In this document: positions 14,838 to 45,886 of the stretch, one piece after another | Position numbering within the stretch: position 1 is the first letter of the stretch | How the letters are laid out: each line of letters begins with the position of its first letter | From: Bongovirus bongo | Lineage: Duplodnaviria > Heunggongvirae > Uroviricota > Caudoviricetes > Vilmaviridae | Direction: 5' to 3' (one strand) | DNA: 64,000 bases | IMG/VR virus record: IMGVR_UViG_2595698371_000001 | Program-made: the position numbers and the translations under genes | The notes under the pieces: model-generated | Told to the model about the DNA's origin: nothing | Databases searched by the model: none | Seen by the model: only the letters and a program-made list of their open reading frames with translations

Positions 14838-15809
14838 ATGTGGATTGGGTGGCAGGAAGGCATGTCCGGACGGCCCGTGCTGGCGGCGAAGGGGGAGCTG
14901 CGGGCGAAGTTCTCGTACGGCAAGAACCTGGATCTGACTGAGCACTTCGGGCCCGACCTGACGGAGGCCCTGAAGACGTTCCAGCGGAACAAGGGTGGGC
15001 TGCGCACGGACGGCGTGCTGGACTACGCCACCCAGAAGGCGTTGGGCGTTCTGGAGGCGTTGAAGCCGTGGGTGTTCACGGTGGCCGGTACGGGTGCCGG
15101 TTGGGACGCGGGCTACCCGGCTGAGGTGGCGCGGGCTGTGCTGGATCTGTACCGCTGGCAGGGCGTGAACTATCCGGCGAAGCCGTTCCCGATGGGCTCG
15201 TCGGTGGACGCGGGTATTGCTGAACTGAAGAAGCTTCTGCGTGAGCGGATGGACCGGTATCCGGCCGCACGGTTCGTGCTGATCGGCTACTCGCAGGGCG
15301 CAATTGTGACCTCGATGGTGTGGCAGAACTTTATCAAGGGCTCGGACCTTGAGGCCCGCATCATCGGTTCGATCACATACGGCAACCCTTGCCGTGAACT
15401 CCACGTGGCGAATGGCAATGTGGCAGAGGGGATTCCGGTTCCCGAGGGGCGGGGGATCTCAGACTTCCGCCTGCGTTCGACTCCGTCGTGGTGGTACGAT
15501 TTTGCACACGGGGCGAACTCCCGTTTCGGCCGTGACATCTACACGGACACACCAGATGACGATGCTGGCGAGATGATGACCGCCATCTACCGCCTGGTCC
15601 AAGATCTGAAGAACATCATTGTCGGCACCGACTCGTTGATCGAGCAGGTGGGAGAGATGTTCCAGCGTCCGATCACCGAGGTCGGCGCAGCGATGTGGGC
15701 GATCTTCTTGGGCGGGCAGTTTGTTGCCACTCGCCCGTATCCGACTATGCCGCACATCAATTACGACATCAACCCAGCTGTGGCGATCCTGCGCCGGATC
15801 GCCGCGTGA
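14838..15809 (+). CDS. lysB: lysin B (cutinase-like mycolylarabinogalactan esterase)
   Basis: 323 aa; GYSQG serine-hydrolase motif; cutinase-like; follows lysA and the holin-like genes. Confidence 0.8.
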   Translation: MWIGWQEGMSGRPVLAAKGELRAKFSYGKNLDLTEHFGPDLTEALKTFQRNKGGLRTDGVLDYATQKALGVLEALKPWVFTVAGTGAGWDAGYPAEVARAVLDLYRWQGVNYPAKPFPMGSSVDAGIAELKKLLRERMDRYPAARFVLIGYSQGAIVTSMVWQNFIKGSDLEARIIGSITYGNPCRELHVANGNVAEGIPVPEGRGISDFRLRSTPSWWYDFAHGANSRFGRDIYTDTPDDDAGEMMTAIYRLVQDLKNIIVGTDSLIEQVGEMFQRPITEVGAAMWAIFLGGQFVATRPYPTMPHINYDINPAVAILRRIAA

Positions 15810-37341: not shown

Positions 37342-37410
37342 GGTTCTGAGGTGTAGGCCCTCGAAGAGGCCCCCGGTCAGCGTATGTGCTGGTCGGGGGC
37401 CTTTTTGGTT

Positions 37411-37428: not shown

Positions 37429-37566
37429 GCGCGGCCTCTAATCTATTTCATGTCCGGTTCAAGAGGGACCGGATAAGCGATACACCGGAGGGGCCAAGTA
37501 CCCACACCTTTCAAGCCTGGTTCCTCCACTGGGGCTCAACAGAGTTGAGGCTGAAGAGTCCCACCT

Positions 37567-37637
37567 ATGGGCGTAGCTGACTGGGAAGCAACGGTCTCCA
37601 AAGCCGTGATATGCAGGTTCGAATCCTGCCGCCCGTG
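37567..37637 (+). tRNA. tRNA-Trp (anticodon CCA)
   Basis: acceptor ATGGGCG/CGCCCGT; anticodon stem ACGGT/GCCGT with loop CTCCAAA; T-arm GCAGG-TTCGAAT-CCTGC; 3-bp D stem. Confidence 0.55.
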
Positions 37638-37718
37638 CAAGGTTCGATGTTCGGTCATTACCGAACGCCGAGCATGTTGGTTGAGAACTCAATAGTGGAA
37701 GTACAAGTAAGTTTCAAT

Positions 37719-38121
37719 GGGGCTGTACTGGTTTCGATTGCGAACCGAGTCCATGGAAGCGTGCCGGGAAGATACGCCCGTAACAGTTCAACCCTTATAA
37801 GCGCCGCATTTGTTGACGCTGATTACGCCGTAGCTGCGTGATCCGGTGGGGCACAACGGTTCACCCGTTCCCGTGTGCAATCCCGCCGTCGCCAAAACGG
37901 GGAACCTGCATACCGACTCAGCATGCAGTGAGCCAGCAATGGTCATAATGCAGATGTCCTCCCGCCGTGAGGAGCGTAGATCGGCTTTGTACCCACACGG
38001 TGACCCTTCGAGGGTTAAGCCCTGTGAGCCAATGGGATACGAGATGAGTTACAGGCTACGCACGTAGAAGAATGAGTACAGAGAACGTAAGACGCGGGTT
38101 CGATTCCCGCCAGCTCCACCA
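37719..38121 (+). ncRNA. ssrA: tmRNA (ssrA), about 403 nt
   Basis: 5' GGGGCTG pairs with 3' CAGCTCC including the G3-U70 wobble; canonical 3' tRNA-like end GCGGGTTCGATTCCCGC-CAGCTCCACCA; internal tag-like frame ...ADYAVAA followed by TGA at about 37826-37850; no credible CDS across the interval. Confidence 0.8.
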
Positions 38122-38486
38122 AGGCCTTGGTCTGGGTTCGAATCCCAGTGTGATTGAAGTGGATTCACGGATGTGCACCCGTGTCTACGCTCCGGTGGGT
38201 AGCTCCCAGCCGCGTTCACATGGTGTAAATGGCAAGCACAGGGCCTGTAAACCGGTTTCCCATCTCCGACCAAAGGATGGGTGGTGGAAACGAACTGGGT
38301 CTTAGGCAACCCCGTTCAGTCCTCGGCGTCCCAGTCCGTCGTCACCCAGACTGGGTAAGCCTAAGTGCCTGCCACAGAGCTAACCCGTGAGGTCGGGAGA
38401 ATCTGGGCACGCTTGACAGCGGAGCGGGAGACTGCGAAAGGTGTCCGTCCTAGCCCTGGTATCGACGTTAAATATCCAGGGACTCT

Positions 38487-38557
38487 TGGCCTGTCGGTTA
38501 ACGGCAAACCAGCGCCCTGTTAAGGCGTGACTCCTGGTTCGAATCCAGGTAGGCCAG
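38487..38557 (+). tRNA. tRNA-Asn (anticodon GUU)
   Basis: U1-A72 acceptor TGGCCTG/TAGGCCA (as in E. coli tRNA-Asn); D stem GGTT/AACC; anticodon arm GCGCC-CTGTTAA-GGCGT; T-arm CCTGG-TTCGAAT-CCAGG. Confidence 0.6.
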
Positions 38558-39316
38558 CATTTGGGGCATGGCCCATAAGCTGAGGTGACTCAGTGAAAGG
38601 TGAGGGTGACTCCTCGCCGCCCGCAAGGGTCCCCATGCAATCCAAACCTTGAGCAGTCCCCTGTGGGGCTGCCAGGATGCGAGTTCATCGTGTGACCAAC
38701 GCCAAGTGGTGAGGTCGGGTTCGGTACCGTGCCGAAGAGCCAGCGAGTAACGGATGAGCAGCCTGTGGGGCGGAAGGAACTTGAGTCGGAGGCCTGGCAG
38801 CCAACGGCGGGTTCCATGACCGATCTCGCGTGGACGACGGTTCACAATGCGGTTGAGGGAGAGAGTGAGTAGCCCGCCAGGCAAAAGCTCGAGAGGCGTG
38901 AAGCATTCTGTAGCTCAAAAGGTTACGGAACTTCATGGGGAAGCACGTCTCTAGTCACAACTACCACGCTATTGGTTAGCAAACTGTCCTGAACACAGTT
39001 GTAGAGGTTCGACTCCTCACAAAGCAAAAGCCTTTCCCTGCCGGTAAGCGAAAGCGCCACTAATCCCCGACTGGGAGCAGAATCGGGGCAGGACGAGCCC
39101 GCAAGGCGGATCCTGTTTGTAGACGAGTAGTGCAGCCATGGGACGGCCATCCTAACGGCGAAGCCAAAGTCGCAGAGTAGCTTTCGGCATTACGAGTGGT
39201 CAGCGTTACTGACCGGGCGTTGCACGTACACAGGGGACTGTGTGGACAAGCCGGGAATCCATAATCCGGCGAAAGCGTGTGAAGGAAGGTTTAGTCTCTA
39301 GCCCTTTCAACAACGG

Positions 39317-39386
39317 GACATAGCTCAAATGGCAGAGTGGGGCAATTGGTGCCCTGGATTCAGGTTCGACTCCTGGTGGCCCGACG
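39317..39386 (+). other. tRNA-like element, either a pseudo-tRNA or an atypical tRNA-Gln(UUG); the anticodon region is 2 nt short or has A33
   Basis: good acceptor (CGGGACA/TGGCCCG), U8, D-arm GCTC-AAATGGCA-GAGT and T-arm TCAGG-TTCGACT-CCTGG, but the anticodon arm cannot be folded canonically. Confidence 0.3.
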
Positions 39387-39388
39387 TT

Positions 39389-39766
39389 ATGGCACTGGCA
39401 GGTGAAGCGAAGCGTGAGTACCAGCGACAGTGGCGAGCGAATCGCCGCGCGGCCTGGTTTGCCGGTAAGGCGTGTGTTCGGTGTGGATCTGATGAGGATC
39501 TAGAACTCGACCACGTAGACCCGACGTTGAAGGTGACGAATGCGGTCTGGTCATGGTCGCAGGAGCGCCGCGACGTGGAGCTTGCGAAGTGTCAAGTGCT
39601 CTGCAACGCTTGCCATAAGGCTAAGACCATATCCCAGACCGTCATCACTATCGGTCTGAAGGCGTACCGCCATGGCACGTGCAGCATGTACGAGCATCAC
39701 CGATGCAGGTGCGGACTGTGTAGGTTGTGGGCGCGAAACAAGAAGCGGCGTCAACGCGCCGCGTGA
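39389..39766 (+). CDS. HNH endonuclease, paralog 1 of the tRNA-array pair
   Basis: ATG immediately after the tRNA-like element; CVRCGS...LELDHVDPT...CNACH; about 60% identical to the 44049 gene over the N-terminus (REYQRQWRANRRAAWFAGKAC versus REYMRRWVANRRSAFFASKQC). Confidence 0.65.
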   Translation: MALAGEAKREYQRQWRANRRAAWFAGKACVRCGSDEDLELDHVDPTLKVTNAVWSWSQERRDVELAKCQVLCNACHKAKTISQTVITIGLKAYRHGTCSMYEHHRCRCGLCRLWARNKKRRQRAA

Positions 39767-39769
39767 TAT

Positions 39770-39851
39770 GCGGTCTCTCCCCTATTGGCGAAGGGCCCCT
39801 GGCTGTAACCCAGGGCTTTCGAGTGTGGTGGTTCGAATCCATCAGGCCGCA
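39770..39851 (+). tRNA. tRNA-Tyr (anticodon GUA), type II
   Basis: acceptor GCGGTCT/AGGCCGC; anticodon arm CCTGG-CTGTAAC-CCAGG; long variable arm; T-loop TTCGAAT; begins 3 nt after the HNH stop codon. Confidence 0.5.
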
Positions 39852-40020
39852 CGTTATGGACTGACGAGGCATTGCGCTCACGGGCTTGCGGCCGTGAGAT
39901 AGAGCCTTCGCCCGCAAGGCCAGTCCAATGGGTGGCGATTAGAGGGAGGGCCTCGTGCCCGAATCGAAAGTGCCCAGCGGCTAGTGGAGAGGTGAGCCGA
40001 CTGAATTGCCTTTCCATCAT

Positions 40021-40092
40021 TGCTCTCTCGTCTAACTGGCAGGACACCAGAATCTGACTCTGGCAGTTGAGGTTCGAATCCTTGGGGAGCAA
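40021..40092 (+). tRNA. tRNA-Gln (anticodon CUG)
   Basis: U1-A72 acceptor TGCTCTC/GGGAGCA; D stem GTC/GAC; anticodon arm CCAGA-ATCTGAC-TCTGG; T-arm TGAGG-TTCGAAT-CCTTG. Confidence 0.5.
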
Positions 40093-40096
40093 CAAT

Positions 40097-40169
40097 CTGG
40101 GTGAGGTGTAAGTGGTTGCATGGCCGGTTTGGATCCGGGCGGTTCGAGGTTCGAGTCCTCGCACCCAGA
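40097..40169 (+). tRNA. tRNA-Pro (anticodon UGG)
   Basis: acceptor CTGGGTG/CACCCAG; anticodon loop TTTGGAT; T-arm CGAGG-TTCGAGT-CCTCG; one mismatch in the anticodon stem. Confidence 0.45.
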
Positions 40170-40210
40170 CGACGAGTTTGCTGGTTTCCTTGGCTACAAA
40201 ACCAGCGTTC

Positions 40211-40293
40211 GGAGAGTTCCGCTGAATGGTCGGCAACCGGCGTCGAATACCGGGGCAGGGTGACACCTGGGGGTTCGAGTCCTCAACTCTCCG
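40211..40293 (+). tRNA. tRNA-Ser (anticodon CGA), type II
   Basis: acceptor GGAGAGT/ACTCTCC; loop GTCGAAT; long variable arm; T-loop TTCGAGT; 83 nt. Confidence 0.4.
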
Positions 40294-40462
40294 CAACGGC
40301 CGACCGGTAGGGGTCTCCCGGTCATTTAGTCAGGTCGCTGCCCAGGCGGGATGCATACCAATCGGGCGGAATTGGGGCCTCAGGACTTAGCGTGGCACCG
40401 TCGCGAAGAGAAAGCCCACTCTGCATGGTCGTCAGGTGGGATACGGCCCTTTACGGTGCGCT

Positions 40463-40548
40463 GGAGAGTGGAACCATCTAGGTGGATGGCCGCGATTGCT
40501 AATCGTGGGGCAGCGTAACGCTGTGTGGATCGTGCCCACTCCTCTCCG
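40463..40548 (+). tRNA. tRNA-Ser-like (anticodon GCU), type II with a non-canonical T-loop
   Basis: anticodon arm CGCGA-TTGCTAA-TCGTG; variable-arm hairpin CAGCG-TAA-CGCTG; acceptor GGAGAG...CTCTCC; the T-loop lacks the TTC. Confidence 0.3.
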
Positions 40549-40656
40549 CAATGAAGAACTAGCTGGCCAGCCATCAGGGTGCCGGTTCAATTCCGGCAGG
40601 GAAAACCTGTGTTCTTCAGGGGGTTTGGTTGGAGTCATGACCGCCACTCCCCACAA

Positions 40657-40731
40657 CGGGTTGTAGCTCAGATTGGTGAGAGCGCTCGGTTGAAACCCGA
40701 GAGGCCCCTGGTTCGAATCCAGGCATCCCGG
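40657..40731 (+). tRNA. tRNA-Phe (anticodon GAA)
   Basis: D-arm GCTC-AGATTGGTGA-GAGC; anticodon arm CTCGG-TTGAAAC-CCGAG; T-arm CCTGG-TTCGAAT-CCAGG; acceptor CGGGTTG/CATCCCG with one U-U mismatch. Confidence 0.55.
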
Positions 40732-40853
40732 CGCACAAGGGAAACCAGACTCGCCCGCTACTGGTGAAAAGCGGGACAGACGGCAGGGGAGGACAAGCCG
40801 CAGCGAAAACCTCCACAACTCTGACTCATGATGTTTGCTGATACAATGAACTT

Positions 40854-41303
40854 ATGAGAAAGCGCTGCCCCCGCTGCGGGGTTGAGAAGGATTGCTCCGA
40901 GTTCTATAAGAACGCGCGCCGGAAGGACGGCCTGCAGCCGTACTGCAAGCGTTGCCACAAGGACACAAACAACGAGTGGTACGCCAACTCGGAGAAGCGA
41001 CGTACTGACATCAAGCGTCGCCGCAAGGCCCATATTGAGATGTTGCAGGAGCACTTGCGGCAGCACCTGATTGACAACCCGTGCGTGGATTGCGGGGAGT
41101 CCGATCTCGTTGTCCTGGACCTGGACCACCGGGATGGCGAGAGTAAGGTCAAAGAGGTCGCAAAGCTGATCCGCGATCAGGTCAGCCTTGAGAAGTTTCA
41201 GGCCGAGATCGCAAAGTGCGACACCCGTTGCGCTAACTGCCATAGGCGCATGACGGCTCGCCGTCATGGCGCGTGGTGGAGGTCCAAAGACATTGCGGTG
41301 TAG
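40854..41303 (+). CDS. HNH endonuclease of a different family from the 39389 and 44049 pair
   Basis: CPRCG...C..C zinc knuckles; DLDHRDGE...CANCH; preceded by an extended -10 TGATACAAT. Confidence 0.6.
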   Translation: MRKRCPRCGVEKDCSEFYKNARRKDGLQPYCKRCHKDTNNEWYANSEKRRTDIKRRRKAHIEMLQEHLRQHLIDNPCVDCGESDLVVLDLDHRDGESKVKEVAKLIRDQVSLEKFQAEIAKCDTRCANCHRRMTARRHGAWWRSKDIAV

Positions 41304-43750: not shown

Positions 43751-43822
43751 GCCGGTATAGCTCAGTGGCTAGAGCACCTGTCTAGTAAACAGGAGACCAG
43801 GGTTCGATTCCCTGTTCCGGCT
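43751..43822 (+). tRNA. tRNA-Thr (anticodon AGU)
   Basis: GCTC-AGTGGCTA-GAGC; CCTGT-CTAGTAA-ACAGG; CAGGG-TTCGATT-CCCTG. Confidence 0.55.
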
Positions 43823-43826
43823 CTCT

Positions 43827-43899
43827 GGGGGTGCATGTTCCTTGGGGGCGACGGATCCTTGCAAGATCTGTGCGGTGGGTTCGATTCCCATCATCTCCA
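43827..43899 (+). tRNA. tRNA-Ala (anticodon UGC)
   Basis: G3-U70 wobble in the acceptor GGGGGTG/CATCTCC; anticodon arm GGATC-CTTGCAA-GATCT; T-arm GTGGG-TTCGATT-CCCAT; weak D-arm. Confidence 0.4.
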
Positions 43900-43937: not shown

Positions 43938-44010
43938 TCCCGATGTCATCTAGTGGACCAGGATGCCGCCCTGTCGAGGCGGTCACGCGAGTTCGAATCT
44001 CGTCGTCGGG
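43938..44010 (+). tRNA. tRNA-Asp (anticodon GUC)
   Basis: CCCGATG/CGTCGGG; D ATCT-n9-GGAT; anticodon arm CCGCC-CTGTCGA-GGCGG; T-arm GCGAG-TTCGAAT-CTCGT. Confidence 0.55.
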
Positions 44011-44048
44011 ACGTGGCATACAAGGATCCTTCCGTGCAGCGCGAGTAT

Positions 44049-44647: not shown

Positions 44648-45886
44648 TTGACCCCGACTACTTTAGCTCCGAAGATTGTCAACTTCGCTTCGGAGATCGA
44701 CCAAGCGACGATTGACCAAGCCAAGCAGATCGCGGAGATGCCGTTCATCTACCCGCACCTGGCGCTGATGCCGGATGCCCACTCGGGCAAGGGATCTGCG
44801 GTCGGCACCGTCATCCCCACCAAGGGCGCTGTCATTCCGGCCGCTGTTGGGGTGGACATCGGCTGCGGCATGATTGCCGTCAAGACGCGGTTCCAGTGGG
44901 ACGCACTGCACACCGCGAAGGCTGGCGCTCCGGATCTGGCTGCGCTGCGCCGTCAGATTGAGGCGGCGATTCCGCTGTCTCCCGGCAACTACAACACGAC
45001 GCTGTCGAAGTTCAACTTCACACGCAAGAAGCACGAAGAGCTGATCCAGTTGCAGCAGGAGCTGGACGTGGACCTGTCTCACTCGCCGAAGTGGATGGAG
45101 CAGCTGGGATCTCTCGGCGGCGGCAACCACTTCATCGAGTTGTGTGTCGACGCCGAGGACAACGTGTGGCTGTTCCTGCACTCCGGTTCTCGCGGAGTCG
45201 GCAACAAGATCGCGCAGCGCCACATCAAGGCGGCTGTGGAGTACTGCGCAGAGGGTGCGCGGCTGGCTGGCTCCGATTCGGTTCGCGCCCGCTACCGACT
45301 CCCTCACCGAGATCTCGCGTTCCTGGACGAGGGAACGTGGATGTTCGACACGTACATCAAGGAGCTGGAGTGGGCCCAGCGGTTCGCGTACCTGAACCGT
45401 GCGGAGATGATGGACCGCTTCGTCCAGGTGTTCGCGTGGTGGATGGGCGTCGAGGCTCAGCGTGTCGAGGTGGAGCGCATCAACTGCCACCACAACTACA
45501 CGGTCCCCACCGTGATCGACGGGGAGCGAGTGTGGTTGACCCGCAAGGGGGCAATCGACGCGACCGAGGGCAAGCTGGGCGTGATCCCGGGCTCGATGGG
45601 CACCCGGTCGTACGTGGTGCGGGGGAAGGGCTGCAGCGCTTCTTTGCATTCTGCGCCCCATGGAGCCGGTCGCCGGTTCTCCCGCACGAAGGCCAAGGAA
45701 CTGTTCACCAGGGATGACCTGGCCGAGCAGATGCAGGGCATCGAGTGGCGCGAGGACATCGCCGAGAAGCTGGTCGATGAGATCCCGTCCTGCTACAAGG
45801 ACATCGACCAGGTCATGGCCGATGCCGAACCGCTGGTGGACGTGGTGACAACCCTGCGCCAGGTTCTCAACGTCAAGGGCACCTAG
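44648..45886 (+). CDS. rtcB: RtcB-family RNA ligase (3'-phosphate/5'-hydroxyl)
   Basis: 412 aa; metal-ligand motifs (HSGKGS..., GGGNHFIE, HSGSRG, NCHHN, HGAGR); TTG start with GAAGGGA SD. Confidence 0.85.
   Translation: MTPTTLAPKIVNFASEIDQATIDQAKQIAEMPFIYPHLALMPDAHSGKGSAVGTVIPTKGAVIPAAVGVDIGCGMIAVKTRFQWDALHTAKAGAPDLAALRRQIEAAIPLSPGNYNTTLSKFNFTRKKHEELIQLQQELDVDLSHSPKWMEQLGSLGGGNHFIELCVDAEDNVWLFLHSGSRGVGNKIAQRHIKAAVEYCAEGARLAGSDSVRARYRLPHRDLAFLDEGTWMFDTYIKELEWAQRFAYLNRAEMMDRFVQVFAWWMGVEAQRVEVERINCHHNYTVPTVIDGERVWLTRKGAIDATEGKLGVIPGSMGTRSYVVRGKGCSASLHSAPHGAGRRFSRTKAKELFTRDDLAEQMQGIEWREDIAEKLVDEIPSCYKDIDQVMADAEPLVDVVTTLRQVLNVKGT

What the first reader, a model, noticed from the sequence alone, without database searches (positions are those of the whole stretch)
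38122..39316. About 1.1 kb of ORF-free, structured-looking sequence inside the tRNA array that I could not assign
Between the tmRNA and tRNA-Asn (38122-38486), and between tRNA-Asn and the next tRNA-like element (38558-39316), there are no credible ORFs; only short antisense or arginine-rich ones appear. The sequence is rich in local hairpins. A CCCGCAAGG GNRA-tetraloop hairpin recurs at 38626, 39078 and again at 39893. There is an orphan T-arm (CTGGGTTCGAATCCCAG at 38141) with no matching acceptor, and a second orphan T-arm at 38774 (GAGGTTCGACTCCTC) with a D-arm-like GCTA-TTGGT-TAGC upstream. A similar unassigned 350-nt stretch sits at 40294-40656, with a T-arm at 40589. These could be degenerate tRNA relics, intron-containing or permuted tRNAs, or an additional structured RNA such as a ribozyme or sRNA.
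Basis: seen in the sequence. Interest (0 to 1): 0.6.

Follow-up and report, generated by a model that had tools for sequence, protein, structure and literature searches.

The report
Phage GOLLD RNA plus tRNA mimics
The unassigned 1.1 kb in this mycobacteriophage tRNA array is mostly a GOLLD RNA already catalogued at this exact locus (a giant structured phage RNA of a class shown to assemble into RNA cages), preceded by a circularly permuted tRNA look-alike and conserved structured spacers, so the main feature is known and only the details are new.

Summary
The window is Mycobacterium phage PegLeg (cluster M), 100% identical. Window 38891-39304 is a full-length match to Rfam GOLLD (216 bits against a gathering score of 150). 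This exact interval is already listed in the GOLLD alignment of Kretsch et al. 2025, so the core of the finding is known.

What I add:
- **GOLLD 5' domain.** 38559-38890 is contiguous with the 3' domain in every relative. It has 65 predicted pairs, 33 with compensatory changes. A model of its core also finds it in a mycobacterial plasmid and a metagenomic viral contig.
- **Full GOLLD unit.** The unit is about 746 nt and is flanked directly by tRNA-Asn and tRNA-Gln.
- **Second orphan T-arm.** It lies at 39004-39018, not 38774. It belongs to an acceptor-less tRNA relic in the GOLLD linker, where Estes, Rey and M. abscessus prophages carry scorable tRNAs.
- **First orphan T-arm.** 38132-38148 belongs to a circularly permuted tRNA-like element (38123-38245) directly after the tmRNA. 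Its topology is that of the YrlA tRNA-like module, but it lacks the Ro60-binding motif and PegLeg has no Ro60 gene.
- **Spacers.** 38250-38486 holds two conserved structured blocks of unknown role.
- **Annotation errors.** The deposited CDS PEGLEG_94 and the second tRNA-Asn are artefacts.

The parts
37719..38121 (+). Phage tmRNA. This is the upstream neighbour and ends in CCA at 38119-38121.
   Evidence: Rfam RF00023, 98.4 bits against a gathering score of 47, full model. Annotated as PEGLEG_91.
38123..38245 (+). Circularly permuted tRNA-like element with YrlA-type topology. Closing stem 38123-38127 with 38241-38245. T-arm 38132-38148. Acceptor-like stem 38149-38153 with 38216-38220, which encloses a ~62-nt insertion that contains hairpin 38166-38183. 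D-arm 38223-38239.
   Evidence: 24 pairs are 100% paired in 5 lineages against 28-52% when partners are slid. Nine pairs have compensatory changes and 0 of 500 shuffles reach the observed values. Compact homologous modules sit directly after the tmRNA in prophages. The compact form gives a partial Rfam YrlA hit, model positions 23-85, 27 bits.
38250..38360 (+). Conserved structured spacer block A2. Hairpins at 38259-38281, 38292-38317 and 38330-38355. In M2 phages this block lies directly between the tmRNA and tRNA-Asn.
   Evidence: Homology blocks. RNAalifold gives 28 pairs, 10 with compensatory changes, and invariant G-U pairs on the + strand.
38360..38486 (+). Conserved structured spacer block A3, which includes a GAGA-loop hairpin. 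It is shared with Nanosmite, prophi86-1 and the cluster L phage Krypton555, where it lies upstream of tRNA-Tyr.
   Evidence: BLAST shows 84% identity to Krypton555 and Finnry over 38360-38449. The alignment shows paired substitutions in hairpin stems.
38487..38558 (+). tRNA-Asn(gtt) with no encoded CCA. Its 3' end abuts the GOLLD 5' domain.
   Evidence: ARAGORN. Rfam tRNA 54 bits.
38559..38890 (+). GOLLD 5' domain of the Mycobacteriaceae mobile-element class: about 15 helices, several capped by GNRA loops. It includes the CCCGCAAGG hairpin at 38620-38628.
   Evidence: Contiguous with the 3' domain in all relatives. 65 pairs are 95.8% paired against 34-46% slid, 33 pairs are compensatory, and 0 of 500 shuffles reach the observed values. 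Covariance model R1 finds the core in plasmid pCBMA213_1 (63.8 bits) and a metagenomic viral contig (57.3 bits), neither of which was in the training set.
38891..39304 (+). GOLLD 3' domain, the part covered by the Rfam model. It includes the CCCGCAAGG hairpin at 39098-39106 and an invariant palindromic loop CGGCCA at 39144-39149.
   Evidence: Rfam RF02032, 216.4 bits against a gathering score of 150, E 7.6e-60, model positions 1-416 of 416. Listed as NC_021299.1:55846-56259 in Supplementary File S3 of PMC12286853.
38968..39018 (+). Acceptor-less tRNA relic inside the variable linker of the GOLLD 3' domain. D-arm 38968-38980, anticodon-like arm 38982-39000, T-arm 39004-39018.
   Evidence: The MFE fold gives three cloverleaf arms and no acceptor stem. 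ARAGORN makes no call and Rfam gives no tRNA hit at E<=1. The same slot holds scorable tRNAs in Estes (Leu-tag, 47.5 bits), Rey (Ser-gga, ARAGORN), the prophages (50.3 bits) and the plasmid (40.1 bits). The element is deleted in Nanosmite.
39314..39385 (+). tRNA-Gln(ttg)-like tRNA that starts 9 nt after the GOLLD 3' end. This is the downstream neighbour.
   Evidence: ARAGORN. Rfam tRNA 41.2 bits.

Best explanation
The stretch is a chain of non-coding RNA modules within the phage PegLeg tRNA array. No terminator-like site or sigma-70-like promoter separates them on the + strand.

Order of modules:
1. tmRNA.
2. A circularly permuted tRNA-like element (38123-38245).
3. Two conserved structured spacer blocks (38250-38486).
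4. tRNA-Asn.
5. A ~746-nt GOLLD RNA (38559-39304).
6. tRNA-Gln.

The GOLLD RNA has a 332-nt 5' domain of a class shared by mycobacterial phages, prophages and a plasmid. Its canonical 414-nt 3' domain carries a decayed tRNA in the variable linker.

Shown here: the identity of each module, its conserved secondary structure, and the absence of any conserved ORF.

Inferred:
- The array is made as one long precursor.
- tRNA-processing enzymes cutting at the flanking tRNAs release the GOLLD RNA. RNase Z or a similar activity would cut after tRNA-Asn, and RNase P would cut before tRNA-Gln.
- Like the GOLLD RNAs solved by cryo-EM, it assembles into a homo-oligomeric RNA cage with the linker (here the tRNA relic) facing inward.
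- Together with the phage tRNAs, tmRNA and the RtcB ligase encoded just after the array, it serves the phage's takeover or protection of translation during lytic growth.

The biochemical function of GOLLD itself is unknown in the field.
For: Identity of the phage: 100% identity to NC_021299.1.

GOLLD 3' domain:
- Rfam 216.4 bits against 150, full-length match.
- The same interval is in the published GOLLD alignment.
- All cluster M relatives score 188-206 bits.

GOLLD 5' domain:
- The homology boundary is sharp at 38558/38559 whatever lies upstream.
- Covariation is strong.
- A covariance model detects the core in sequences outside its training set, and in the plasmid the match again abuts a tRNA 3' end.

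Linker tRNA slot: scorable tRNAs in relatives and a relic in PegLeg. This agrees with the literature: a pseudo-tRNA inside mycobacterial GOLLD (PMC6582537), tRNAs in the GOLLD linker (PMC12286853), and a tRNA-Phe in the junction the review calls J13/15 (PMC12990946).

Permuted tRNA-like element.

No protein coding: PEGLEG_94 is broken in relatives.

Transcription: no terminator-like site on the + strand between 37408 and 40900, and no sigma-70-like promoter.

Cage assembly and phage-linked expression of GOLLD: PMC12286853.

RtcB at 44648-45886: Pfam 357 bits.
Against: - No expression, end-mapping or assembly data exist for PegLeg itself.
- In M. aubagnense the GOLLD RNA is only weakly expressed (PMC6582537).
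- The PegLeg 5' domain shows no detectable sequence similarity to the solved env-38 5' domain. Whether it forms the same kind of cap is therefore unknown, and the stoichiometry could differ.
- PegLeg has one hairpin where the Rfam consensus has two (model positions about 231-262).
- In most relatives a ~79-nt module separates tRNA-Asn from the GOLLD 5' domain, so direct flanking by a tRNA is not universal.
- The promoter scan covers only sigma-70 consensus sites, so an internal promoter cannot be excluded.
Confidence: 0.85

Rival explanations
1. The region encodes small proteins, for example the deposited 47-aa PEGLEG_94, and the apparent structure is incidental.
For: GenBank annotates a CDS at 38729-38872, and many relatives carry a 'hypothetical protein' at the same place. 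Reindeer keeps the frame.
Against: The frame is lost or interrupted by stops in Nanosmite, prophi86-1, prophiT49-2, prophiGD54-2, Estes, Aziz, MrMagoo and Rey. The same columns keep base pairs through compensatory changes. The ORF lies inside the GOLLD 5' domain.
Confidence: 0.02
2. Everything upstream of the Rfam hit (38122-38890) is non-functional debris, namely decayed tRNA genes and spacers left by HNH-endonuclease-driven shuffling of the array.
For: The blocks are mosaic and are present or absent independently among relatives. HNH endonuclease genes are interspersed in the array. tRNA relics clearly exist, as in the linker relic. Tandem tRNA junctions mimic the permuted module at up to about 32 bits.
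Against: Helices in every block are maintained by compensatory substitutions across lineages 64-93% identical. The two strands of the acceptor-like stem and of the closing stem are mutually complementary, which a junction of two different tRNAs would not give. The 5' domain core is conserved as far as a plasmid and a metagenomic viral contig. The permuted element keeps its position directly after the tmRNA in prophages.
Confidence: 0.08
3. The GOLLD RNA is longer than proposed and its 5' domain begins at about 38122, with tRNA-Asn embedded in it, so the whole 1.18 kb would be one RNA.
For: tRNAs can be embedded in GOLLD RNAs. Region A is structured and on the same strand. No terminator separates the parts.
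Against: Homology to other GOLLD loci starts sharply at 38558/38559 in every relative, whatever lies upstream: tRNA-Asn, a 79-nt module, or about 200 nt after an odd tRNA in prophages. In the plasmid the 5' domain core starts at the 3' end of a different tRNA. The region A blocks occur independently of GOLLD; for example block A3 occurs in the cluster L phage Krypton555, where no GOLLD match was found in the ~5.4 kb examined.
Confidence: 0.05
4. The permuted tRNA-like element (38123-38245) is a true Y RNA (YrlA) that works with the host Ro60 ortholog Rsr.
For: The module order matches YrlA: closing helix, V, T-arm, AS, D-arm, closing helix (PMC4201824). The compact relatives give a partial Rfam YrlA hit. 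M. smegmatis has Rsr and YrlA. The cluster L phage Krypton555 has a Ro-like protein with a YrlA-like module next to it.
Against: By inspection of the sequence there is no GNCGAAN0-1G motif or extended Ro-binding helix. The closing stem has only 5 pairs. No Ro-like gene was found in the window. The Rfam score is far below gathering (27 against 69) for the compact form, and the PegLeg form gets no hit.
Confidence: 0.15

Closest known systems
GOLLD RNA (Rfam RF02032; Weinberg et al. 2009; cryo-EM structure of env-38, Kretsch et al. 2025, PMC12286853)
   Same: The 3' domain matches the family model full-length at 216 bits. The RNA is phage-encoded and sits within a tRNA island. It has a variable linker after the first 3'-domain hairpin that can hold a tRNA, and a two-domain layout of similar overall size (746 nt against 833 nt).
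   Different: The 5' domain (332 nt against about 420 nt) shows no detectable sequence similarity to env-38. There is one hairpin where the consensus has two, at model positions about 231-262. The sequence is G+C-rich. The linker tRNA has decayed to an acceptor-less relic.
Mycobacterial GOLLD in tRNA array units (Morgado and Vicente 2018, PMC5966550; Morgado et al. 2020, RNA Biol 17:1001, not held; Behra et al. 2019, PMC6582537)
   Same: This is the same element. A ~430-nt structured RNA was reported in G1 arrays, the group that includes cluster M phages. It is associated with HNH endonucleases, has a pseudo-tRNA inside the gene, and is thought to be of phage origin. PegLeg is named as the commonest related prophage.
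   Different: The held papers describe the ~400-430-nt 3' part. The 5' domain delimited here, its covariation and its sharp boundary are not described in the papers I could read. I could not read Morgado 2020.
YrlA, the bacterial Y RNA with a tRNA-like module (Rfam RF02553; Chen et al. 2014, PMC4201824)
   Same: The permuted order is the same: T-arm, acceptor-like stem-loop and D-arm enclosed by a helix formed from the two ends. The T-loop and D-loop are tRNA-like. The compact relatives have a 7-bp acceptor-like stem, as does M. smegmatis YrlA, which RNase P cleaves.
   Different: There is no Ro60-binding helix or GNCGAA motif, and no adjacent Ro60 gene. The element is embedded in a tRNA array directly after a tmRNA or tRNA. 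PegLeg's copy has a ~62-nt insertion in the acceptor-like stem-loop. Rfam scores are far below gathering.
ROOL RNA
   Same: It is another large phage or prophage RNA found near tRNA islands that forms a homo-oligomeric cage.
   Different: Its sequence and fold are unrelated. No ROOL match was found in the window at the gathering threshold.

Membership tests
GOLLD RNA (RF02032) | A 3' domain that matches the family covariance model at or above the curated gathering score | tested here: met
   216.4 bits against 150, E 7.6e-60, model positions 1-416 of 416, + strand, 38891-39304. The same interval is in the published family alignment.
GOLLD RNA (RF02032) | The long-range pseudoknot or kissing pairing marked [[ ]] in the Rfam consensus (model positions about 149-158 with 289-300) | tested here: met
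   The cmscan alignment pairs CUGCCGG.AAGC with GCUUUCGGCA and shows no non-canonical marks in those columns. Both segments are conserved in all 10 relatives.
GOLLD RNA (RF02032) | A large structured 5' domain upstream of the conserved 3' domain, described as variable between lineages | tested here: met
   38559-38890 is contiguous with the 3' domain in all relatives. 65 pairs are 95.8% paired and 33 are compensatory. The core also occurs in a plasmid and a metagenomic viral contig.
GOLLD RNA (RF02032) | Homology of the 5' domain to the solved env-38 5' domain (P1-P13) | tested here: inconclusive
   nhmmer gives no hit and blastn gives only chance-level matches. The literature calls the 5' half less conserved. 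A structure-level comparison was not possible with these tools.
GOLLD RNA (RF02032) | Encoded in a phage or prophage, next to or within tRNA clusters | tested here: met
   The element lies in the phage PegLeg tRNA array, flanked by tRNA-Asn and tRNA-Gln.
GOLLD RNA (RF02032) | A variable linker that may carry a tRNA | tested here: met
   PegLeg has a relic at 38968-39018. Estes, Rey, the prophages and the plasmid carry scorable tRNAs in the same slot.
GOLLD RNA (RF02032) | Assembly into a homo-oligomeric RNA cage | not testable with these tools
   Known for env-38 (a 14-mer) and for the S. agalactiae 3' domain (8-, 10- and 12-mers) from cryo-EM. In PegLeg I can only note an invariant palindromic loop, CGGCCA at 39144-39149, which could form a symmetric kissing contact.
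YrlA / bacterial Y RNA (RF02553) | A tRNA-like module in the order T-arm, acceptor-like stem-loop, D-arm, closed by a helix of the two ends | tested here: met
   PegLeg 38123-38245: 24 pairs are 100% paired in 5 lineages and 9 are compensatory. The compact relatives are 97.6% paired with 8 compensatory pairs. Both alignments have only 4-5 distinct sequences, and I derived the structure from them.
YrlA / bacterial Y RNA (RF02553) | A match to the family model at the gathering score | tested here: not met
   The Estes compact copy scores 27.0 bits against 69, covering model positions 23-85 only. The PegLeg copy gets no hit at E<=10.
YrlA / bacterial Y RNA (RF02553) | A Ro60-binding helix with the GNCGAAN0-1G motif | tested here: not met
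   By inspection of 38100-38260 there is no such motif. The only CGAA is in the T-loop. The closing stem has 5 pairs.
YrlA / bacterial Y RNA (RF02553) | A gene adjacent to a Ro60/Rsr ortholog | tested here: not met
   tblastn of the Krypton555 Ro-like protein against the window gives nothing better than E = 1. No such product is annotated in record positions 31000-80955. The first ~17 kb of the genome lies outside the window and was not searched.
tRNA (RF00005), for the linker element 38968-39018 | A cloverleaf with an acceptor stem that tRNA finders recognise | tested here: not met
   ARAGORN makes no call. Rfam gives no tRNA match at E<=1 in 37500-41300. The fold has D, anticodon and T arms but no acceptor pairing.

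The most novel reading that the evidence does not exclude
The permuted tRNA-like elements form an undescribed class of Ro60-independent YrlA-type tRNA mimics built into phage tRNA arrays. PegLeg's copy is at 38123-38245. Compact 79-nt copies lie after the tmRNA in M. abscessus prophages and between tRNA-Asn and GOLLD in M2 phages. They could act as RNase P / RNase Z processing cassettes that set the ends of the tmRNA and GOLLD. Alternatively they could act as decoys for host tRNA-targeting defences, alongside the tRNAs, tmRNA, GOLLD and RtcB. Separately, the mycobacterial GOLLD 5' domain may be a distinct structural class that gives a cage of different geometry from env-38.
Probability: 0.25. 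Interest if true: 0.55.

Novelty: already known. Interest (0 to 1): 0.33.

Why it matters
GOLLD is one of the few natural RNAs known to build a closed cage, and its function is unknown. PegLeg infects M. smegmatis mc2 155, where phage recombineering is routine, so this locus is a practical place to test what a GOLLD RNA does.

The details added here make clean deletion, processing and assembly experiments possible:
- the exact unit boundaries, with tRNAs on both sides;
- a conserved 5' domain class;
- a linker slot where tRNAs are gained and lost;
- a neighbouring permuted tRNA mimic.

They also correct two annotation errors that have propagated through cluster M genomes: a spurious CDS and a duplicated tRNA-Asn.

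Tried and rejected
- **Genome-contig scan.** The 15-mer TTCATGGGGAAGCAC was too short for a 596-Gb collection.
- **Minimum free energy z-scores.** For 38122-38486 the + strand scores -0.72 and the - strand -2.48. These do not discriminate in this G+C-rich sequence, so I relied on covariation.
- **Promoter scan.** It found no sigma-70-like site and cannot address mycobacterial or phage promoters.
- **Env-38 comparison.** nhmmer and blastn of the 5' domain against env-38 gave no similarity. The env-38 sequence I assembled from the PDF text is 815 nt, not 833, so residue numbers could not be mapped.
- **Unavailable papers.** Weinberg 2009, Pope 2014 and Morgado 2020 are not held. What those papers say about the 5' domain or this spacer is unverified.
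- **Helix 5 of the RNAalifold model (A7 columns 83-87 with 374-378).** I rejected it because it conflicts with the first hairpin of the Rfam 3' domain and shows no covariation. The alternative GCAUGG/CCAUGC pairing is invariant in 14 sequences, so it is untested.
- **wcaG RNA hit at 38239-38295.** 24.5 bits against 42, E 0.13. I judged it chance.
- **Plasmid BLAST.** It found only one record.
Full report
**Source.** The query 38122-39316 is 100% identical to Mycobacterium phage PegLeg (NC_021299.1, cluster M, Bongovirus). Adding 16955 to a window coordinate gives the record coordinate. The region lies in the phage's tRNA array. The order is tRNA-Trp, tmRNA (37719-38121), tRNA-Asn (38487-38558), tRNA-Gln(ttg) (39314-39385), and then many more tRNAs interspersed with HNH endonuclease genes.

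**Checking the observation.**
- The stretch is non-coding. The one deposited CDS inside it, PEGLEG_94 at 38729-38872 (47 aa), keeps its frame only in the 91%-identical Reindeer. It is frame-shifted or stop-interrupted in Nanosmite, three M. abscessus prophages and four M2 phages.
- The record's second tRNA-Asn (window 38559-38630) is simply the first tRNA-Asn interval shifted by 72 nt. No tRNA finder supports it.
CCCGCAAGG lies at 38620, 39098 and 39911, and occurs 9 times in the window against 0.79 expected. The second orphan T-arm is at 39004-39018, not 38774.
- The 40294-40656 stretch contains the annotated tRNA-Ser(gct) at 40466-40547.

**Main identity: GOLLD.**
- Rfam at curated thresholds gives a full-length GOLLD match at 38891-39304 on the + strand: 216.4 bits against a gathering score of 150, E 7.6e-60, model positions 1-416 of 416.
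- All cluster M relatives and related M. abscessus prophages score 188-206 bits at the same place.
- This is already in the literature. Supplementary File S3 of Kretsch et al. 2025 lists 'NC_021299.1:55846-56259 Mycobacterium phage PegLeg', which is exactly window 38891-39304, together with Bongo, Rey, Estes and others.
- Morgado and Vicente 2018 reported a ~430-nt structured RNA in about 81% of Mycobacterium tRNA arrays, prevalent in the G1 group that includes cluster M phages. The title of their 2020 paper indicates that GOLLD is widespread in Mycobacterium tRNA arrays. That paper is cited, but I could not read it.
- Behra et al. 2019 showed weak expression of a mycobacterial GOLLD and noted a pseudo-tRNA inside the gene.

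**The 5' domain.**
- The Rfam model and the published alignment cover only the conserved 3' half. Sensitive BLAST shows that 38558-38890 is homologous to, and contiguous with, the 3' domain in every relative (alignment A1).
- The homology boundary at 38558/38559 is sharp whatever lies upstream. That is tRNA-Asn directly in PegLeg, a ~79-nt module in Reindeer, Estes, Aziz, MrMagoo and Rey (an ~80-nt spacer in Nanosmite that does not align with it), and about 200 nt after an odd tRNA in the prophages.
- On 12 non-redundant sequences (64-93% pairwise identity), RNAalifold predicts 65 pairs in 15 helices. Of cells, 95.8% are paired, against 34-46% when partners are slid by 1-3 columns. Thirty-three pairs show changes on both sides, against 4-10 when slid. 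None of 500 shuffles reaches the observed values.
- A covariance model of the first ~127 positions finds the same module in two sequences that were not used to build it and that BLAST missed. These are plasmid pCBMA213_1 (63.8 bits, starting at the 3' end of an upstream tRNA) and a metagenomic viral contig (57.3 bits). With these included, the core is 99.1% paired and has 14 compensatory pairs.
- The 5' domain shows no detectable sequence similarity to the env-38 5' domain. This fits the description of GOLLD 5' regions as less conserved.
- The GOLLD unit is therefore about 38559-39304, or 746 nt.

**The second orphan T-arm.**
- The variable linker after the first hairpin of the 3' domain holds an element with D-like, anticodon-like and T arms but no acceptor stem, at 38968-39018. 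Neither ARAGORN nor Rfam calls it a tRNA.
- The same slot holds tRNA-Leu(tag) in Estes (47.5 bits) and tRNA-Ser(gga) in Rey. It holds an odd tRNA in the prophages (50.3 bits) and a tRNA in the plasmid (40.1 bits). The element is deleted in Nanosmite.
- PegLeg therefore carries a decayed copy of a linker-embedded tRNA, a known GOLLD feature.

**The first orphan T-arm.**
- While examining the ~79-nt spacer that separates tRNA-Asn from GOLLD in relatives, I found that it folds as a circularly permuted tRNA. The order is closing stem, T-arm, a 7-bp acceptor-like stem capped by a loop, D-arm, closing stem. It is 97.6% paired with 8 compensatory pairs.
- Rfam gives a partial YrlA hit on the Estes copy that covers exactly the tRNA-like module: model positions 23-85 of 114, 27 bits, E 2.4e-4 in that small search, against a gathering score of 69.
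- PegLeg lacks the module at that site. However, the sequence directly after its tmRNA (38123-38245) has the same topology, with a ~62-nt insertion in the acceptor-like stem-loop. All 24 pairs are paired in all five lineages (28-52% when slid), and 9 pairs are compensatory. For example, the D-stem is GUGU/GCAC in PegLeg and GCUC/GAGC in Rey.
- A model of the compact form finds copies directly after the tmRNA in the M. abscessus prophages at 25-56 bits, and recovers Rey's expanded copy at 37.8 bits.
- As Chen et al. warned, tandem tRNA junctions also score, up to about 32 bits. The lowest-scoring prophage copy, L010 at 24.8 bits, falls inside that range, so its assignment rests on its position after the tmRNA and on the closely related copies.
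- The element fails the other defining features of YrlA. It has no GNCGAA motif or extended Ro-binding helix, no Ro-like gene was found in the window, and it scores far below gathering.
- For contrast, the cluster L phage Krypton555 has a Ro-like protein (DUF2828, DUF7788 and VWA domains) with a YrlA-like module just downstream of it.
- These alignments are small (4-5 distinct sequences), and I derived the structure from them. The evidence is good but not overwhelming.

**The remainder of region A.**
- Block 38250-38360 has hairpins at 38259-38281 and 38292-38317 that are kept by compensatory changes, and invariant G-U pairs on the + strand. In M2 phages it sits between the tmRNA and tRNA-Asn.
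- Block 38360-38486 is shared with Nanosmite, with prophi86-1, and at 84% identity with the cluster L phages Krypton555 and Finnry, where it lies upstream of tRNA-Tyr.
- No Rfam family matches either block. Their role is unknown. Processing or insulating elements of the array transcript is my guess.

**How it most likely works.**
- Shown: the modules, their structures, and the lack of coding potential.
- Inferred: the array is transcribed as a long precursor. No terminator-like site lies on the + strand between the strong terminator at 37362-37407 and 40900.
- Inferred: tRNA-processing enzymes release GOLLD, because tRNA-Asn (which has no encoded CCA) abuts its 5' end and tRNA-Gln starts 9 nt after its 3' end. 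The plasmid copy is likewise flanked closely by tRNAs.
- Inferred: by analogy with env-38 and the S. agalactiae 3' domain, the RNA would form a homo-oligomeric cage with the linker inside.
- An invariant palindromic loop (CGGCCA, 39144-39149; its stem covaries GGGA/UCCU with GAGA/UCUC) is a candidate symmetric kissing contact. This is my inference only.
- The array ends with an RtcB RNA ligase at 44648-45886. This fits a theme of supplying and repairing the translation apparatus.

**Verdict.** The main feature is an already catalogued GOLLD RNA, so the finding is explained rather than new. The additions are modest:
- the 5' domain class and unit boundaries;
- the linker tRNA relic;
- the tmRNA-adjacent permuted tRNA mimic without Ro60;
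- two conserved unassigned spacer blocks;
- two annotation errors.

Noticed in passing
window 40210-40294: An unannotated class-II-like tRNA. It has the acceptor stem GGAGAGU/ACUCUCC, a long variable arm, a T-arm at 40272-40282, and an anticodon loop that can be read as CGA (Ser). Rfam tRNA-Sec scores it at 30.6 bits, below gathering, and ARAGORN misses it. It is conserved at 74-91% identity in Reindeer, Estes, Rey and the M. abscessus prophages.
   Followed up: partly
window 38559-38630 and 38729-38872: Two annotation errors in the PegLeg GenBank record. PEGLEG_93, a second tRNA-Asn, is the first tRNA-Asn interval shifted by 72 nt. PEGLEG_94 is a spurious 47-aa CDS. Both lie inside the GOLLD 5' domain. 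Homologous 'hypothetical protein' calls have propagated through cluster M genomes.
   Followed up: yes
L002 1514-1593, L004 1685-1767, L007 1705-1787, L008 1797-1879, L009 1742-1826; L006 742-820, L019 6731-6812, L020 1167-1248: Compact ~79-nt circularly permuted tRNA-like modules resembling the YrlA tRNA-like domain. In M2 phages and Reindeer they lie between tRNA-Asn and GOLLD. In M. abscessus prophages they lie directly after the tmRNA. None of these phages shows a Ro60 gene nearby.
   Followed up: partly
L146 1659-3098 and 3240-3304 (phage Krypton555): This cluster L phage encodes a Ro-like protein (DUF2828, DUF7788 and VWA domains) followed by a YrlA-like module (38.3 bits) and a GTCGAAG motif. 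The same phage shares the 90-nt block 38360-38449 with PegLeg, upstream of its tRNA-Tyr.
   Followed up: partly
window 40548-40625: A tRNA-like element with the acceptor-like stem GAAGAAC/GUUCUUC and a T-arm at 40581-40597, but no anticodon arm and 13 extra nt after the T-arm. It lies between tRNA-Ser(gct) and tRNA-Phe.
   Followed up: no
window 39314-39385: The tRNA directly after GOLLD has the anticodon loop AAUUGGU, with A rather than U before the anticodon. Relatives annotate it inconsistently as Gln, Arg or OTHER. At the same position M2 phages carry a tRNA called Ala(cgc) in Estes, Aziz and Rey, and Arg in MrMagoo.
   Followed up: no
window 31823, 38620, 39098, 39911, 45540, 48553 (+ strand); 51894, 57612, 62719 (- strand): CCCGCAAGG, a 3-bp stem with a GCAA tetraloop, occurs 9 times against 0.79 expected. 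Copies follow the local direction of transcription. Outside GOLLD its role is unknown.
   Followed up: no
window 43878-43888: Another T-loop motif (GGTTCGATTCC) lies between tRNA-Thr (43751-43823) and tRNA-Asp (43939-44012). No tRNA call covers it.
   Followed up: no
window 44648-45886: An RtcB RNA ligase (Pfam 357 bits) is encoded immediately after the tRNA array. As I recall (not checked in a held paper), RtcB is co-operonic with Ro60 and Y RNAs in Salmonella.
   Followed up: partly
window 15399-15494: ARAGORN calls a 96-nt tRNA-Arg(ccg) far from the array. By record coordinates it falls inside the endolysin gene PEGLEG_38, and Rfam gives no tRNA hit there at the gathering threshold. It is probably a false positive.
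   Followed up: no
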